A DNA stretch of 64,000 nucleotides, taken from NCBI GenBank assembly GCA_000092065.1, contig CP000581.1; one strand, written 5' to 3'. A program made the translations under genes and the position numbers. Under the pieces are notes generated by a model. That model saw only the letters and a list, made by a program, of their open reading frames with translations. It made no database searches and was not told the origin of the DNA. Shown here one piece after another: positions 8,318 to 12,513 of the stretch (its first letter is position 1; each line of letters opens with the position of its first letter). The stretch comes from Ostreococcus lucimarinus (taxonomy: Eukaryota).

Positions 8318-11300
8318 TCATGGGAGCAACGTTTTTACCGTCACCGGTTGCAGACTTGTCAAAGGCGACGGTTTACGCTCCCTACGACCTCGTTGGAACT
8401 GGGGGAATCCAGTCCACTTGTCGTTATTTCTCACCTTGTGAACCTGGAAAGAGTCTGGCGACGCCGGTCGCTCGAACGCATCCGCGTTGTCTGACGCGGC
8501 ATCTTCATAGCTATCTCGTCGGGGACGGTACTTTGGCGATGATGGCCGAGACGAATTCGCCGAGCCATCTGTGTTGACTACGCTCTGTTGCCCTTCGTCC
8601 GAAAGCCTGTACCAGTTCGATCGCATCACCATATCAAGTTCAAGCTTGCCCAGCTTCGCCGCCGCGCTCGCTGCGTCAACTGAGGGTGATACCAATGGCG
8701 CAAGCGCCGGAGCCAAGTTGCCAGGATTCACAGTCGTCGCATTGAACTTCTTCGCGACGGCTGGCACGGCGTCTGTGATGATCCCGAAAACGCCGAGCTC
8801 GACTTGCGTCGACGATGCAGCGACATCATCGTTACCTTCGCCGTATGTAGCGAGAAGTAAACCACTGTCTCGAACATCGGTCGCGTCGGACGGGCGCGAT
8901 ATAATCGCCTTGACGTTCGACACAACGCCACACAAGCCACCTTCGAGCGCGACTTCCATCGCGGCAGCGACTGAACGTCGACGCGGGTCGACGTGATGGG
9001 GCTCGGCATCGGTCAATATCATCACTGGATATGAGCCCTGGATGGCACGCATGAGTAGAGCGGCATCTGGATCGAAAGATGAGAACACGATTCTGCGACT
9101 GGGTTGCGCCATGCAAACCGCTAGAATGGCGCGGAGTTCCGCGACCAAGCGGCGCGTTTCACAGCTGTTCTCTTCGTCGAACTTGAGCTCGATGTTGAAG
9201 CCAAGCTCTTTCGGCGTGTTTCCAAGAATCTGTGCCAAAGTTGGGATCTCATCTTCGACTTCCATGACCCACGGTTGAGGTTCAAGATCGCCGCCGAACA
9301 CGCGATAAAATGTCACCTTGTTGTCGTCTTCGTCGTAATCGTCGTCGTCTTCGTCGTCTTCGTCGTCGGTGGTTAAAGGAACTGTCTTTTCAACACCGAG
9401 GGCGTTGGACGCTCGCGCGGCGGTAGCGCGCGCGGCGCGAGACAGTTCGCGCAGATCCGCCCAGTCAATCTCTCGAACGCTAAACGACTCCAAAGGTCCG
9501 AGTCCGCGACGAATGATGACGACGTCGTCGTGCCAAGCGACGGGAACACCGTCTGCGGTCACTTGAACGTCAAACTCACACCACTCCGCGCCACCAGCAG
9601 AAGCCGCGTTGAACGATGCTAGCGTGTTTTCACGAATACCGGCGCCAGAAGCGCGATTCGCTTGTAAACCTCTGTGCCCGATGACGGCGCAACCGGCGGG
9701 TTCGAACAGTCCCGGAAGATGCGAAGGAAACGGAGTAGAACCAATGATCGGATGACTGACTCGTCGCTGCTCGAACCCTTTCTTCGTGTTCTTCAACCGA
9801 GAGTTCAACGTTGGATCTTTTGCCTGCGCCTCTCGACGTCGAAACGCCAACATGTCTTCGCCGTCCATCGCCCACTCGCGTCGCGTTGCGACGCCGAAAT
9901 GATCGAGAATGGTTGGCGCTATGTCTGTGTCGCACGGTGACGGCAATAACTCACCAGACATTTCAACTCTCGGACCACTTTCAATCAACACCCATCCCGC
10001 GCTGTGTTGCGGTAACTCGAGGAGTCCACTCACACCGTTTGAGCGAAGCTGACGACCGCCGCCGTCGCTCCAATCGTACGCGTCGAATTGGCCTTGCATC
10101 CCGGCGGGCATATCGTGACGACACGTACCGCCTGAAGGCGAGGTGATGACGACGAGCCAATCCTCTTCTCGATGCATCGACTGCCGAGCACGCAAAGCCG
10201 CGATGACTTCGGCAAGCTTACGATCGGCCGATTCGATTGCGTCCATATAAGTGTCGACGTGCGGACCGAAGCCGTGCCTGAAACCGGTGTTTTGAATGTC
10301 GCCCAAATGCAACAGGAGCATGTCAGGCGTCGTCGGTTCCGCAAGACATTTCGCAATCGCTTCACTCGCCTCTGCATCTGTGCTCACGGACGACGCCAAG
10401 AGCGATTTCGTCTCTTTACGAATGATCTTGTCCAGATCTTCAGCCTCGCCTATGGCGCACGCGCCTTTGATCCACGAGCGTGTTTCCTTCAGTCTATCAT
10501 AAATGGACGACAACGTCGCATCTTCGTCTTCATCGATGGCCTTCAACACGCTCACCGATTGCCCCGTGAGTATTGGTAGCATCGGCGAGTTCGCACTCGT
10601 CGAGCACCGCATCGCGCTCGCATTCATGTCGAGCGAGAAGCACGCGTTCTTGTTACCGCGAATAAACGATTTAAGCGTCGGCGTATTCGCGGTGAGCATG
10701 GCGTCCACGCGACATCCCGCAACAGCGACGAGTAAAACCTTTCGGAGCGTCGGCACGGGATGCTCCGGCTGCACGTCCGACGCGCTCTCATCCGACGCAG
10801 ATCCCGCGGCGGCGGGTGTCATCAACATGTCCGCGTCGAGCTCGTCCGCATCCGTGTCCAAGTCTCTGTCGTTGAAGTTGCGGATGAGCTCATCCAAATT
10901 CGAGTCCGGCTTGAACATTCGACCGTCGATCTTGCGATCTTCTTTCGCGCGACACACCGGACAGCGACCAGGGAACAACGCCACTTTGCTCGCCGGCGTC
11001 TTCATGATGGGAGACCCCGTCTCGGCAAGATTTGCGATGTCGTTTAAATTCGTCACCGAAGCCGTCGTGATGAGCGGCGTGCTCGCCGACGGCGCGCTGT
11101 TGATGATGCACTTGAAGCAAAACTTATGTCTGCACGTCGGCAACACCACAGGATTGCTCAGCACCTCCTCGCACACCGGGCATATGGAGTCTTCGAGCAC
11201 CTTTGCCGACTTCGTCGGCGCCGCGTGCACGGCGAGCATTTCGGTCCGAGTCACCAACTTTGCCAACCCGAGCGAATAAAACATCGGCGACTCGCTCAGA

Positions 11301-11713
11301 ATGCTCACCGCATTTTCGCTACGGTTGCAATTCTTGTTAAATTTCTTCACCGCCTTGACGACGGCGGTATAATTCAACACCACAAACTCTCTCAACTCGC
11401 TCAACTCGGGATAAAACTCGCGCACGAGCGTCTTCTTCGCCCTTCGCAACGCCGTCGCGTCCACGCTATCGCTCCGAATGTCCGTCTCCAGCGCATCCAA
11501 CCTCTCCCTCAGCGCGCGCTCTTTCGTCGCGTAGAACCCATTCGCCTTGACGATCTCATCTCGCAGCGCGTTCAAAAACCTCCGCGCGCCCTCCTCGCCG
11601 TCCGCCCCGTCCTTGGCCTCGTACACCACCCTCTTCAGCGCGCGATAATCGATGTAATGCGCCGCCCACGACGGGAACGCCTCGCTCTCGAGCCTTCGCG
11701 CGAACTTCACCAT
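8318..11713 (-). CDS. Multidomain SPX-RING-phosphodiesterase protein. Order: N-terminal SPX domain, C3HC4 RING finger, type-I phosphodiesterase/nucleotide pyrophosphatase (alkaline-phosphatase superfamily) domain, glycerophosphodiester phosphodiesterase (GDPD) domain, low-complexity C-terminus.
   Basis: 1131-aa ORF from the ATG at 11713. SPX: MVKFARRLESEAFPSWAAHYIDYRALKRVV...LNYTAVVKAVKKFNKN. RING: CPVCEEVLSNPVVLPTCRHKFCFKCI...CPVCRAKEDRK. NPP-like: RKVLLVAVAGCRVDAML...TPTLKSF...DMLLLHLGDIQNTGFRHGFGPHVDTYMDAIESADRKLAEVIAAL...DTDIAPTILDHFGV. GDPD: IGHRGLQANRASGAGIRENTLASFNAA...EFDVQVTADGVPVAWHDD...LGFNIELKF...VFSSFDPDAA. Confidence 0.8.
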   Translation of the reverse strand: MVKFARRLESEAFPSWAAHYIDYRALKRVVYEAKDGADGEEGARRFLNALRDEIVKANGFYATKERALRERLDALETDIRSDSVDATALRRAKKTLVREFYPELSELREFVVLNYTAVVKAVKKFNKNCNRSENAVSILSESPMFYSLGLAKLVTRTEMLAVHAAPTKSAKVLEDSICPVCEEVLSNPVVLPTCRHKFCFKCIINSAPSASTPLITTASVTNLNDIANLAETGSPIMKTPASKVALFPGRCPVCRAKEDRKIDGRMFKPDSNLDELIRNFNDRDLDTDADELDADMLMTPAAAGSASDESASDVQPEHPVPTLRKVLLVAVAGCRVDAMLTANTPTLKSFIRGNKNACFSLDMNASAMRCSTSANSPMLPILTGQSVSVLKAIDEDEDATLSSIYDRLKETRSWIKGACAIGEAEDLDKIIRKETKSLLASSVSTDAEASEAIAKCLAEPTTPDMLLLHLGDIQNTGFRHGFGPHVDTYMDAIESADRKLAEVIAALRARQSMHREEDWLVVITSPSGGTCRHDMPAGMQGQFDAYDWSDGGGRQLRSNGVSGLLELPQHSAGWVLIESGPRVEMSGELLPSPCDTDIAPTILDHFGVATRREWAMDGEDMLAFRRREAQAKDPTLNSRLKNTKKGFEQRRVSHPIIGSTPFPSHLPGLFEPAGCAVIGHRGLQANRASGAGIRENTLASFNAASAGGAEWCEFDVQVTADGVPVAWHDDVVIIRRGLGPLESFSVREIDWADLRELSRAARATAARASNALGVEKTVPLTTDDEDDEDDDDYDEDDNKVTFYRVFGGDLEPQPWVMEVEDEIPTLAQILGNTPKELGFNIELKFDEENSCETRRLVAELRAILAVCMAQPSRRIVFSSFDPDAALLMRAIQGSYPVMILTDAEPHHVDPRRRSVAAAMEVALEGGLCGVVSNVKAIISRPSDATDVRDSGLLLATYGEGNDDVAASSTQVELGVFGIITDAVPAVAKKFNATTVNPGNLAPALAPLVSPSVDAASAAAKLGKLELDMVMRSNWYRLSDEGQQSVVNTDGSANSSRPSSPKYRPRRDSYEDAASDNADAFERPASPDSFQVHKVRNNDKWTGFPQFQRGRRERKPSPLTSLQPVTVKTLLP

Positions 11714-11811
11714 CCCTCTCGCCGAGCGCCGTCGTCCCTCGCGTCGTCGTCCTCGCGCGCGCGCTCAAAACGCGTCGCCGCGCGTCCCTCGAACGTTCGT
11801 CCTCGCCGTCG

Positions 11812-11870
11812 TCCCGTCGCCGTCGCGTCGCGTCGCGTCGCGCGTCGCGTCGCGTCGCGCGTCGCCGCGC
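11812..11870. repeat. Simple tandem repeat (CGTCGCG)n in the intergenic region upstream of the SPX gene.
   Basis: gtcgcgtcgcgtcgcgtcgcgcgtcgcgtcgcgtcgcgcgtcgcc. A mirrored (GTCGCGAC)n run lies at ~12055..12095. Confidence 0.6.
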
Positions 11871-12210
11871 CGTCGTCCGAGCCTCCGCGCGCGCGCGCGT
11901 TCGCCCGCGCGACGCGCGCGCGTCGCGTCCGCGTCTGCCGCGCGCGACGCGCGACGGTCGTCGCGCCCACGGCGCATGTGCCGTCCCGCGCGAACTCGTA
12001 CATGTGCGCTGACTGTTTACGCACACGCGACCGACCGCACGACCGCGCGGATTTTCCACGCGGCGTCGCGACGTCGCGACGTCGCGACGCCGGCGCGCAG
12101 ACGAGGGACGGCGCGACGACGCGACGGGACGACGACGACGGCGATGACGACGACGGCGACGACACGGCGCGAGGGACGACGACGGGCGCGGACGCACGAC
12201 GCGGACGCGG

Positions 12211-12513
12211 ATGGATGGCGCGGACGCGGATGACGCGGATGGCTCGAAAGATGCGAAATCGATGGTGATGGACGACGTCGGGGGGTGTCGCGCGGTGAGA
12301 GCGAAGGAGATTCTCGAGGCGAGCGGGTTTAAGCGCGTCGTCATCGTGCGAGGCGGCGCGAACGCGTGGAAGAGCGCGTGGGATTCGAACACGCGTCGCC
12401 GACAGCTTCCGGGCTCGTTCAGTCGCGGGTTCGACAATCCCATGTTTGCCGACAGTAACGTCGTCGCGGAAGAGTTCGGGGCGTCATCGGATGACACCGT
12501 GTGGATCGTGTGA
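12211..12513 (+). CDS. Rhodanese-like domain, C-terminal half only. Possibly a terminal exon of a gene whose 5' exons were not found.
   Basis: MDGADADD...VGGCRAVRAKEILEASGFKRVVIVRGGANAWKSAW matches the active-site-Cys loop and C-terminal helix of single-domain rhodaneses (CRSGxRS...GGxxAW). The first half of the domain is missing and the frame closes upstream at ~12142. Confidence 0.3.
   Translation: MDGADADDADGSKDAKSMVMDDVGGCRAVRAKEILEASGFKRVVIVRGGANAWKSAWDSNTRRRQLPGSFSRGFDNPMFADSNVVAEEFGASSDDTVWIV

What the first reader, a model, noticed from the sequence alone, without database searches (positions are those of the whole stretch)
8318..11713. Fusion of an SPX phosphate-sensor domain, a RING E3 finger, a nucleotide pyrophosphatase/phosphodiesterase domain and a GDPD domain in one 1131-aa protein
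Known SPX architectures are SPX alone, SPX-EXS, SPX-MFS, SPX-RING (the plant NLA type) and SPX-GDPD (the yeast Gde1 type). This ORF appears to combine SPX, RING, an alkaline-phosphatase-superfamily NPP domain and a GDPD domain. An InsP/PP-InsP sensor would then be joined to a ubiquitin-ligase finger and two phosphodiester-cleaving domains in one protein, which would be a phosphate-scavenging regulator of a new type.

Some NPP catalytic positions look non-canonical (ITSPSGG where SDHGM is expected), so that domain may be a binding module rather than an enzyme.
Basis: partly seen in the sequence, partly recalled or inferred. Interest (0 to 1): 0.65.

Follow-up and report, generated by a model that had tools for sequence, protein, structure and literature searches.

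The report
SPX–RING–dead NPP–GDPD fusion protein
A picoalgal (Ostreococcus-like) gene encodes one 1131-residue protein that joins a phosphate-status sensor domain, a ubiquitin-ligase finger, a catalytically dead phosphodiesterase-like domain and an intact glycerophosphodiesterase, a combination conserved across its algal class but not described in the literature I could search.

Summary
Window 8318..11713 (minus strand) is one uninterrupted 1131-aa ORF.

- **SPX (1-165):** Pfam E 3e-17. The inositol-pyrophosphate-binding Tyr/Lys positions are present.
- **RING (178-254):** C3HC4 type, with all eight zinc ligands invariant. It is split by a variable loop of 31-66 residues.
- **GDPD (661-990):** Pfam E 8e-33. 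Every catalytic residue is invariant.

All six metal ligands of the NPP domain are replaced (A332, Q474, F478, P526, S527, S562). It is nevertheless about as conserved as the active domains, so it is a pseudoenzyme kept for a non-catalytic role.

The collinear architecture is present in all 23 aligned homologues, drawn from 30 hit clusters, which I infer to be Ostreococcus-, Bathycoccus- and Micromonas-like. They include a complete Mantoniella transcript.

In fission yeast, SPX-RING (Spx1) and SPX-ankyrin-GDPD (Gde1) are separate inositol-pyrophosphate effectors. Here the two are fused.

Function is inferred, not tested. I class this as a new variant of a known kind, of moderate interest.

The parts
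8318..11713 (-). Complete single-exon ORF of 1131 codons plus a stop at 8318-8320.
   Evidence: ORF listing. The identical 1131-aa product is called in independent assemblies.
11219..11713 (-). SPX domain, residues 1-165. It carries Y23 and K27 on the N-terminal helix and the lysine cluster K120, K123, K124, K127.
   Evidence: Pfam PF03105 E 2.9e-17. phmmer hits the XPR1, Vtc3 and plant SPX1/2 SPX structures, with Y23/K27 and the K120-K127 helix aligned to the XPR1 'YiqYeafK' and 'KilKKhdK' segments. The four Lys are invariant in 24/24 sequences. The AF2 helical bundle has pLDDT 72-89.
10940..11191 (-). C3HC4 RING finger, residues 175-258. Ligands are C178, C181, C194, H196, C199, C202 and C251, C254. 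It is split by a variable, low-confidence loop (residues 203-250, window 10964-11107).
   Evidence: Three RING Pfam models score above cutoff but align only to residues 178-206. All eight ligands are invariant in 24/24 sequences, and the loop is 31-66 aa across the family. AF2 confidence is low here, pLDDT about 30-58, so the fold itself is not confirmed.
10868..10918 (-). Conserved short helix after the RING, residues 266-282 (D270, L273, D274, F276, I277, F280).
   Evidence: Invariant or nearly invariant columns in alignment A1. Predicted helix at 272-278.
10751..10867 (-). Acidic, poorly conserved linker, residues 283-321.
   Evidence: Mean identity to the window protein is 0.16 across homologues. 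pLDDT is below 50.
9836..10750 (-). Pseudo-NPP domain, residues 322-626. It has the alkaline-phosphatase-superfamily fold of the Phosphodiest type, with all six metal-ligand positions substituted (A332, Q474, F478, P526, S527, S562).
   Evidence: Homology and fold. Residue states across the family. Mean identity 0.57, against 0.65 for GDPD and 0.16-0.24 for the linkers.
9734..9835 (-). Basic, poorly conserved linker, residues 627-660.
   Evidence: Mean identity 0.24. pLDDT is below 50.
8744..9733 (-). GDPD catalytic domain, residues 661-990. The intact active-site set is H680, R681, E695, E713, D715, H728, D729, E842, K844. A long insertion includes an acidic run (about residues 767-797, window 9323-9415).
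   Evidence: Pfam PF03009 E 7.8e-33. PDB GDPD sequence hits. Foldseek to GDPD structures gives E 9e-12 and target-normalised TM 0.7-0.82. All nine residues are invariant in 24/24 sequences. The spacing matches the S. pombe Gde1 active-site residues H810/R811, E845/D847 and H860 listed in PMC8749416.
8321..8743 (-). C-terminal tail, residues 991-1131, predicted to be mostly disordered. It has two conserved islands: E1025, W1034, Y1035, L1037, S1038, and W1100, P1104.
   Evidence: No Pfam hit. pLDDT is below 50 apart from the 1012-1046 helices. Conserved columns are in A1.

Best explanation
This is a cytosolic, multi-domain phosphate-homeostasis protein of the green picoalgal class Mamiellophyceae.

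**Shown**
- It carries a ligand-competent-looking SPX domain and a complete C3HC4 RING.
- It carries an NPP-derived domain that has lost its entire bimetallic catalytic site yet remains under strong purifying selection.
- It carries a GDPD domain with every catalytic residue intact.

**Inferred**
- The SPX domain reads cellular inositol pyrophosphate (PP-InsP), and therefore phosphate status.
- The GDPD domain hydrolyses glycerophosphodiesters from phospholipid deacylation (GroPCho, GroPIns and others) to glycerol-3-phosphate plus the alcohol. This recycles phosphorus, and possibly inositol.
- The RING recruits an E2 so that PP-InsP occupancy of SPX is converted into ubiquitination. The target could be the enzyme itself (turnover when phosphate is replete) or partners such as phosphate transporters, as with plant NLA.
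- The dead NPP domain occupies the position that ankyrin repeats hold in fungal Gde1/Pho81. It most likely acts as a rigid scaffold or as a non-hydrolysing binding module for a phosphodiester or nucleotide-like ligand or a protein partner.

In effect, one polypeptide combines the two SPX effectors that are separate proteins in fission yeast: Spx1 (SPX-RING) and Gde1 (SPX-ANK-GDPD).
For: - **Domain identities and boundaries:**
- **SPX ligand-binding positions:** Y23/K27 and K120/K123/K124/K127 align to the XPR1 and Vtc SPX structures. The four Lys are invariant.
- **RING:** the eight ligands are invariant.
- **GDPD:** H-R / E / E-x-D / H-D / E-x-K are invariant. Their spacing is identical to the mutationally validated S. 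pombe Gde1 residues (PMC8749416). The nearest outside relatives are plant GDPD1/GDPD2 at 35-37% identity over 95-98% of the domain.
- **NPP catalytic loss:** the eleven standalone relatives aligned in A4 keep the catalytic set (D16, S54-P56-W58, D161, D213/H214 and H243 invariant; H165 nearly invariant). The fusion family has A, Q, F/H/A, P, S/A and S/T at the six metal-ligand positions.
- **Constraint on the dead domain:** mean identity 0.57, against 0.16-0.24 for the linkers.
- **Precedent that SPX-RING and SPX-GDPD proteins both transduce PP-InsP signals and need both modules:** PMC8749416.
- **No signal peptide is possible:** SPX begins at residue 1.
Against: - Nothing functional was measured: no PP-InsP binding, E3 activity, GDPD activity or expression response to phosphate.
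- The RING fold is poorly predicted (pLDDT 30-58). Pfam aligns only its first three quarters.
- No P1BS (GNATATNC) element lies upstream of the gene. There are two matches in the whole window, neither near the gene, against an expectation of 5.7. There is therefore no sequence hint of PSR1-type phosphate-starvation induction.
- The word-indexed search with SPX-RING alone found no NLA-like relatives, so kinship with NLA or Spx1 rests on architecture only.
- The role of the pseudo-NPP domain is a guess.
Confidence: 0.6

Rival explanations
1. Self-destruct enzyme. The protein is primarily a glycerophosphodiesterase, and the SPX-RING module acts only in cis. When phosphate (PP-InsP) is high, it auto-ubiquitinates and the enzyme is degraded. 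There are no trans substrates.
For: E3, sensor and enzyme are covalently linked in every family member. Long disordered linkers and a disordered tail could serve as ubiquitination or degron sites.
Against: Plant NLA and S. pombe Spx1 are thought to act on other proteins. Nothing in the sequence discriminates cis from trans action.
Confidence: 0.2
2. Signalling rather than scavenging. The GDPD activity mainly liberates inositol or inositol phosphates to feed PP-InsP synthesis, as proposed for S. pombe Gde1. The protein would then be a feedback node of the PP-InsP pathway rather than a phosphorus-recycling enzyme.
For: PMC8749416 proposes this explanation for Gde1's role in IP8 toxicosis. The SPX sensor and the enzyme sit in one chain.
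Against: The nearest outside GDPD relatives are the plant GDPD1/2 type. From my own knowledge, not tested here, these are linked to phosphate-starvation lipid recycling. Substrate preference cannot be read from the sequence.
Confidence: 0.1
3. The NPP-like domain is still an enzyme and uses a rebuilt active site, for example the invariant C334, H485, D534, H570, E588 and H605.
For: The domain is highly conserved, with many invariant polar residues.
Against: All six canonical metal ligands are replaced, several by residues that cannot coordinate metal (A, F, P), and the nucleophile loop is not conserved. H485 ('GPH') and H570 ('PQH') are nearly invariant in the canonical standalone relatives too, so they are family features and not new catalytic residues. 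The other listed residues were not checked in this way.
Confidence: 0.05
4. Gene-model artefact. The ORF is really two or more adjacent genes, or contains an unrecognised intron or readthrough.
For: The O. lucimarinus CCE9901 reference annotation lists only a 314-aa 'partial' GDPD protein at the orthologous place (P0229). Many metagenome gene calls lack the SPX N-terminus.
Against: There is one uninterrupted frame of 3393 nt. Interdomain order and conserved linker-flanking motifs are kept in all 23 aligned homologues from several inferred genera. A complete Mantoniella transcript ORF spans SPX to GDPD. Identical full-length calls come from independent assemblies, and one Tara record is marked 'complete' with start 263 and stop 3658.
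Confidence: 0.03

Closest known systems
Fungal Gde1 (S. cerevisiae YPL110c; S. pombe Gde1): SPX-ankyrin-GDPD
   Same: Both have an N-terminal SPX and a C-terminal catalytically intact GDPD in a cytosolic protein of about 1100-1200 aa. The active-site residues have the same spacing as S. pombe H810/R811, E845/D847 and H860.
   Different: The middle of the protein is a RING finger plus a dead NPP domain instead of ankyrin repeats. There is no Ank Pfam hit even at E<=1. The nearest GDPD sequences are plant GDPD1/2, not fungal Gde1.
Plant NLA/BAH1 and S. pombe Spx1: SPX-RING E3 ligases
   Same: SPX is followed directly by a C3HC4 RING with all eight ligands.
   Different: NLA and Spx1 end after the RING, whereas this protein continues for about 870 residues with two further domains. 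The RING is split by a 31-66-aa loop. No sequence-level link to NLA was recovered.
Saprolegnia diclina SDRG_10388 (XP_008614598.1): SPX-RING-GDPD-like, 629 aa
   Same: It has the same order of SPX, C3HC4 RING and a GDPD-family domain.
   Different: It has no NPP-like domain. Its GDPD looks degenerate: 'AHPR' replaces HRG, and the positions where the metal-binding Glu residues are expected read otherwise, by eye from the sequence. It matches the window protein only at E 4e-15 over 18% of the query.
NPP/Phosphodiest family (PF01663), e.g. Xanthomonas NPP and ENPP1-7, plus a standalone ~300-aa subfamily (one member traced to the protist Apiculatamorpha)
   Different: All six metal ligands are lost and there is no conserved nucleophile. 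The context is intracellular and fused.
YejM/PbgA periplasmic domain: a non-catalytic alkaline-phosphatase-fold lipid-binding module
   Different: It is bacterial, periplasmic and membrane-anchored. There is no specific sequence relationship, and the analogy is functional only.

Membership tests
SPX domain (PF03105) | Profile match above the curated cutoff, at the N-terminus. | tested here: met
   64.2 bits against 27.8, E 2.9e-17, starting at residue 1. PDB SPX hits to XPR1, Vtc3 and OsSPX1/2.
SPX domain (PF03105) | Basic ligand-binding surface: Tyr/Lys on helix 1-2 and the Lys cluster on helix 4. | tested here: met
   Y23/K27 and K120/K123/K124/K127 align with the XPR1 'YiqYeafK' and 'KilKKhdK' segments. 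The Lys cluster is invariant in 24/24 sequences. The residue roles come from Wild et al. 2016, from my own knowledge.
SPX domain (PF03105) | Binds InsP6 or PP-InsP. | not testable with these tools
   Requires ITC or binding assays.
RING finger, C3HC4 (PF00097/PF13923) | Eight Zn ligands with spacing C-x2-C-x(9-39)-C-x(1-3)-H-x(2-3)-C-x2-C-x(4-48)-C-x2-C. | tested here: met
   The window protein reads C178-x2-C181-x12-C194-x1-H196-x2-C199-x2-C202-x48-C251-x2-C254. All ligands are invariant. The second loop is at the upper limit here and exceeds it (up to 66 aa) in some Micromonas-type homologues.
RING finger, C3HC4 (PF00097/PF13923) | Cross-brace fold. | tested here: inconclusive
   AF2 pLDDT is 30-58 over residues 170-260. 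Pfam aligns only profile positions 1-30 of 40.
RING finger, C3HC4 (PF00097/PF13923) | E2-dependent ubiquitin ligase activity. | not testable with these tools
   Requires an in vitro ubiquitination assay.
NPP / Phosphodiest (PF01663), alkaline-phosphatase superfamily | Profile match above the Pfam cutoff. | tested here: not met
   15.8 bits for the whole protein and 18.7 bits for the isolated domain, against a cutoff of 23.
NPP / Phosphodiest (PF01663), alkaline-phosphatase superfamily | Homology to bona fide members. | tested here: met
   The profile search finds relatives at E 1e-45 to 1e-33 that pass the PF01663 cutoff with 45-131 bits. hhalign gives probability 100%, E 2.4e-55.
NPP / Phosphodiest (PF01663), alkaline-phosphatase superfamily | AP-superfamily alpha/beta fold. 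| tested here: met
NPP / Phosphodiest (PF01663), alkaline-phosphatase superfamily | Bimetallic site (Asp, Asp, His, Asp, His, His) plus a Thr/Ser nucleophile. | tested here: not met
   The window protein has A332, Q474, F478, P526, S527 and S562. The nucleophile loop carries a 3-aa insertion and no invariant Ser/Thr. The eleven standalone relatives aligned in A4 keep these positions, invariant or nearly invariant.
GDPD (PF03009) | Profile match above the cutoff and a TIM-barrel fold. | tested here: met
   115 bits against 23.6. Foldseek to GDPD structures gives E 9e-12 and TMt 0.7-0.82.
GDPD (PF03009) | Catalytic His-Arg, metal-binding Glu/Asp/Glu, and the second catalytic His. | tested here: met
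   H680, R681, E695, E713, D715, H728, E842 and K844 are invariant in 24/24 sequences. They correspond to the S. pombe Gde1 residues shown by mutagenesis to be required.
GDPD (PF03009) | Hydrolysis of glycerophosphodiesters. | not testable with these tools
   Requires an enzyme assay.
Gde1-type SPX-ankyrin-GDPD proteins | Ankyrin repeats between SPX and GDPD. | tested here: not met
   No Ank family appears among the Pfam hits at E<=1. The interval holds the RING and the pseudo-NPP domain.
NLA-type SPX-RING proteins | Two-domain protein that ends after the RING, and orthology to NLA. | tested here: not met
   About 870 further residues with two folded domains follow the RING. The SPX-RING-only search returned only fragments of this same family.

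The most novel reading that the evidence does not exclude
The fusion is a 'Rosetta stone'. It would show that the SPX-RING (NLA/Spx1) arm and the SPX-GDPD (Gde1) arm of inositol-pyrophosphate signalling act on one pathway. The dead NPP domain would be a sensor that binds a phosphodiester metabolite (a glycerophosphodiester or a nucleotide). Ubiquitin-ligase output would then be gated jointly by PP-InsP level and by phospholipid-turnover products, making this a two-input phosphate-status integrator not known in any organism.
Probability: 0.12. Interest if true: 0.75.

Novelty: new variant of a known kind. Interest (0 to 1): 0.5.

Why it matters
SPX proteins are the eukaryotic receptors for inositol pyrophosphates. 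They are classified by what is fused to SPX. [quoted passage not shown]

This family adds an undescribed class. It physically joins two effector types that fission-yeast genetics found to be separate but parallel transducers of IP8.

It also provides a clear example of an NPP-derived pseudoenzyme retained under selection. In addition, it exposes a truncated reference annotation in O. lucimarinus, which may explain why a published SPX survey of that species reported only two SPX proteins and no such fusion.

Mamiellophyceae are abundant marine picophytoplankton in which phosphorus supply matters, so a tractable one-protein link between phosphate sensing and phospholipid-phosphorus recycling would be useful. 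All of the function remains to be shown.

Tried and rejected
1. **Pfam on the single sequence for the NPP domain:** sub-threshold. Resolved by profile and fold methods.
2. **NCBIfam:** only weak GDPD hits, nothing new.
3. **AFDB50 fold search, to get UniProt orthologues:** the library was not available.
4. **First attempt to translate the GDPD region:** used a wrong frame. Corrected.
5. **Homology search with SPX-RING alone, to link it to NLA or Spx1:** returned only fragments of the same family. The relationship to NLA stays architectural.
6. **P1BS (GNATATNC) promoter element as a hint of PSR1/PHR1 control:** two matches in 64 kb, none near the gene, fewer than expected by chance. No evidence either way.
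7. **Literature searches:** queries for 'SPX-GDPD', for SPX + GDPD + RING + algae, and for SPX with Ostreococcus or Micromonas found no paper describing this architecture or its expression under phosphate limitation.
8. **C-terminal tail against Pfam:** no hit.
9. **Idea that the conserved His/Cys residues form a new active site in the NPP-like domain:** rejected as the main reading, because H485 and H570 are nearly invariant in the canonical standalone relatives too.
10. **Gene-fusion artefact:** rejected on the conservation and transcript evidence.


Full report
**1. The observation**

The window is GC-rich (about 0.54-0.69) and eukaryotic. Its neighbouring ORFs encode a CDK-like kinase, a Sybindin/TRAPP subunit, a rhodanese fragment and a TRIP4-like protein. 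At 8318..11713 on the minus strand there is one uninterrupted ORF of 1131 codons, starting at the first start codon after a stop.

The identical protein is called in independent assemblies. A variant differing by one residue carries an NCBI source. The O. lucimarinus CCE9901 orthologue is 90% identical over the GDPD part. From this I infer that the window comes from a closely related Ostreococcus, but not from that strain.

**2. The four domains**

Whole-protein Pfam results were:

| Domain | Pfam result | Position |
|---|---|---|
| SPX | E 2.9e-17, 64.2 bits against cutoff 27.8 | N-terminus |
| RING (C3HC4) | three models just above cutoff | 178-206 only |
| GDPD | E 7.8e-33, 115 bits against cutoff 23.6 | 680-983 |
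| Phosphodiest (NPP) | 15.8 bits against cutoff 23, E 0.011 | 442-512 |

PDB sequence search agrees for SPX (XPR1, Vtc3, OsSPX1/2), RING and GDPD. It gives nothing for NPP.

- **SPX.** In the XPR1 alignment, Y23 and K27 and the helix-4 lysines K120/K123/K124/K127 fall on the XPR1 'YiqYeafK' and 'KilKKhdK' segments. These are the positions that form the InsP/PP-InsP binding surface according to Wild et al. 2016 (from my own knowledge).
- **RING.** The ligands read C178-x2-C181-x12-C194-x-H196-x2-C199-x2-C202-x48-C251-x2-C254. All eight are invariant in 24 of 24 aligned family members. The loop between C202 and C251 varies from 31 to 66 residues.
- **GDPD.** The set H680 R681 / E695 / E713 D715 / H728 D729 / E842 K844 is invariant. 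It has the same internal spacing as S. pombe Gde1 H810-R811, E845-D847 and H860, which mutagenesis showed to be required (PMC8749416). Foldseek on the full-length model hits GDPD structures at E 9e-12, with target-normalised TM 0.7-0.82.

**3. The middle domain**

Alignment of 24 family members shows that residues 322-626 are a conserved block flanked by poorly conserved linkers. Mean identity to the window protein is 0.57 for this block. It is 0.65 for GDPD, 0.64 for SPX and 0.16-0.24 for the linkers.

Several lines of evidence place it in the NPP family:

- Each of 14 aligned members hits PF01663 (best E 9e-6). Some also hit the sister families Metalloenzyme and Sulfatase.
- A profile of the block finds Xanthomonas NPP as the best PDB sequence, with two collinear segments.
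- An exhaustive HMM search of 1.8 billion representatives finds 1835 proteins at E<=1e-3 and 875 at E<=1e-10.
- All eight sampled hits outside the fusion family are PF01663 members well above cutoff, at 45-131 bits. Four are standalone proteins of about 300 aa.
- hhalign between the two profiles gives probability 100%, E 2.4e-55, over 280 columns.

The domain is therefore NPP-derived.

**4. It is a pseudoenzyme**

The eleven standalone relatives aligned in A4 keep the canonical catalytic set, invariant or nearly invariant. The table compares each position with the window protein.

| Canonical motif in standalone relatives | Catalytic residue(s) | Window protein |
|---|---|---|
| DGxRPD | Asp | A332 |
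| vDxxGH | Asp, His | Q474, F478 |
| TTDHGG | Asp, His | P526, S527 |
| GVHG | His | S562 |
| S-x-P-S/N-W | Ser nucleophile | loop with a 3-residue insertion, no invariant Ser/Thr |

Across the whole fusion family the same six positions are A(P/D), Q, F/H/A/V/M/S, P(S), S/A(G) and S/T(Y). The two deepest-branching fusion members (P0029, P0047) retain only the first Asp. Loss of catalysis therefore predates the radiation of the family.

**5. One gene?**

- The collinear order SPX-RING-NPP-like-GDPD is kept in all 23 aligned homologues, chosen from 30 hit clusters. From sequence groupings I infer these are Ostreococcus-like (67-80% identity), Bathycoccus-like and Micromonas/Mantoniella-like sets, plus two deeper lineages.
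- P0012 is a complete MMETSP transcript ORF from Mantoniella beaufortii. It has a full SPX N-terminus and, in the family alignment, the pseudo-NPP block, besides its RING and GDPD Pfam hits.
- A Tara record of the identical protein is flagged complete, with start 263 and stop 3658.
- Many metagenome gene calls lack the first 60 or so residues. These look like gene-calling artefacts, because the helix-4 part of SPX is always present.
- RNA-seq of this strain was not available.

**6. Full-length model**

AF2 on the whole protein (pTM 0.40) gives a confident SPX helical bundle, a confident NPP-like core and a confident GDPD barrel. Confidence is low for the RING, the two linkers, the acidic insertion in GDPD (767-794) and the tail beyond residue 992. 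The protein therefore looks like beads on flexible strings. Inter-domain contacts could not be assessed.

**7. Comparison with known systems**

- **Fungal Gde1** shares SPX...GDPD but has ankyrin repeats in the middle.
- **Plant NLA and S. pombe Spx1** share SPX-RING but stop after the RING.
- **S. pombe genetics.** Gde1 and Spx1 were both isolated as agents of IP8 toxicosis. Both need their SPX ligand site and their enzymatic module.
- **Saprolegnia XP_008614598.1** has SPX-RING-GDPD-like without the NPP domain and with a degenerate GDPD.
- **Nearest GDPDs outside the family** are plant GDPD1/GDPD2, at about 35% identity and E about 1e-43.
- **Literature.** Reviews and an algal SPX survey that included O. 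lucimarinus do not list this architecture. No paper in the library contains 'SPX-GDPD'.
- **Annotation.** The O. lucimarinus reference annotation carries only a 314-aa partial GDPD fragment for the orthologue, which may explain the omission.

**8. Mechanism**

Shown:
- The domain identities.
- An intact GDPD active site.
- Intact SPX basic-surface residues and a complete RING ligand set.
- A dead but constrained NPP domain.

Inferred:
- SPX reports PP-InsP, and therefore phosphate status.
- GDPD recycles glycerophosphodiesters to glycerol-3-phosphate.
- The RING converts sensor state into ubiquitination, either of itself or of partners.
- The pseudo-NPP domain is a scaffold or a non-hydrolysing binding module, in the place of Gde1's ankyrin repeats.

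There is no upstream P1BS motif, so there is no sequence hint about transcriptional control.

**9. Verdict**

It is a new variant (a new SPX fusion class) built from known parts. Interest is moderate (0.5): it is an attractive hypothesis generator for PP-InsP signalling and a clean pseudoenzyme case, but nothing functional has been demonstrated and the protein already exists, under-annotated, in public databases.

Noticed in passing
Orthologue of window 8744-9727 in O. lucimarinus CCE9901 (protein P0229): The reference annotation lists only a 314-aa 'predicted protein, partial' that covers the GDPD domain (90% identical). This hides the SPX, RING and NPP-like parts. It may be why a published SPX survey of that species reported only two SPX proteins and no such fusion.
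   Followed up: partly
Proteins P0052-P0190; window 9836-10750 is the query: There is a large, apparently unnamed subfamily of PF01663 proteins of about 300 aa. They have a Ser nucleophile motif S-G-P-S/N-W and a full metal site. One member traces to the protist Apiculatamorpha spiralis. Other members are fused to D123, Peptidase_M1 or MAM domains.
   Followed up: partly
Protein P0030 (Saprolegnia diclina XP_008614598.1): This oomycete protein has SPX-RING-GDPD-like architecture but lacks the NPP-like domain. Its GDPD appears degenerate ('AHPR' for HRG; the expected metal-binding Glu positions read otherwise, by eye). It is a second and possibly independent SPX-RING-GDPD combination.
   Followed up: partly
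window 8321-8743 (-), residues 991-1131: The disordered C-terminal tail has no Pfam match but holds two conserved islands (E1025...W1034 Y1035 x L1037 S1038, and W1100...P1104). These look like short linear motifs.
   Followed up: no
window 9323-9415 (-), residues about 767-797: An acidic run (DDEDDEDDDDYDEDD) sits inside a long insertion of the GDPD barrel. The acidic character is kept across the family although the length varies.
   Followed up: no
window 12211-12513 (+): A 100-aa ORF matches only the C-terminal half of the Rhodanese profile (positions 59-101). It is probably one exon of a divergently transcribed gene with an intron.
   Followed up: no
window 11714-12210: The intergenic region upstream of the gene is extremely GC-rich and built from CGCGACG/GTCGTC-type short repeats. 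Long spurious ORFs run through it on both strands.
   Followed up: no
Alignment A1, N-termini of P0006-P0029: Most metagenome-derived homologues lack the first 60 or so SPX residues or begin with unrelated sequence. This suggests 5' introns or miscalled starts in Bathycoccus- and Micromonas-type genes rather than real loss of SPX.
   Followed up: partly
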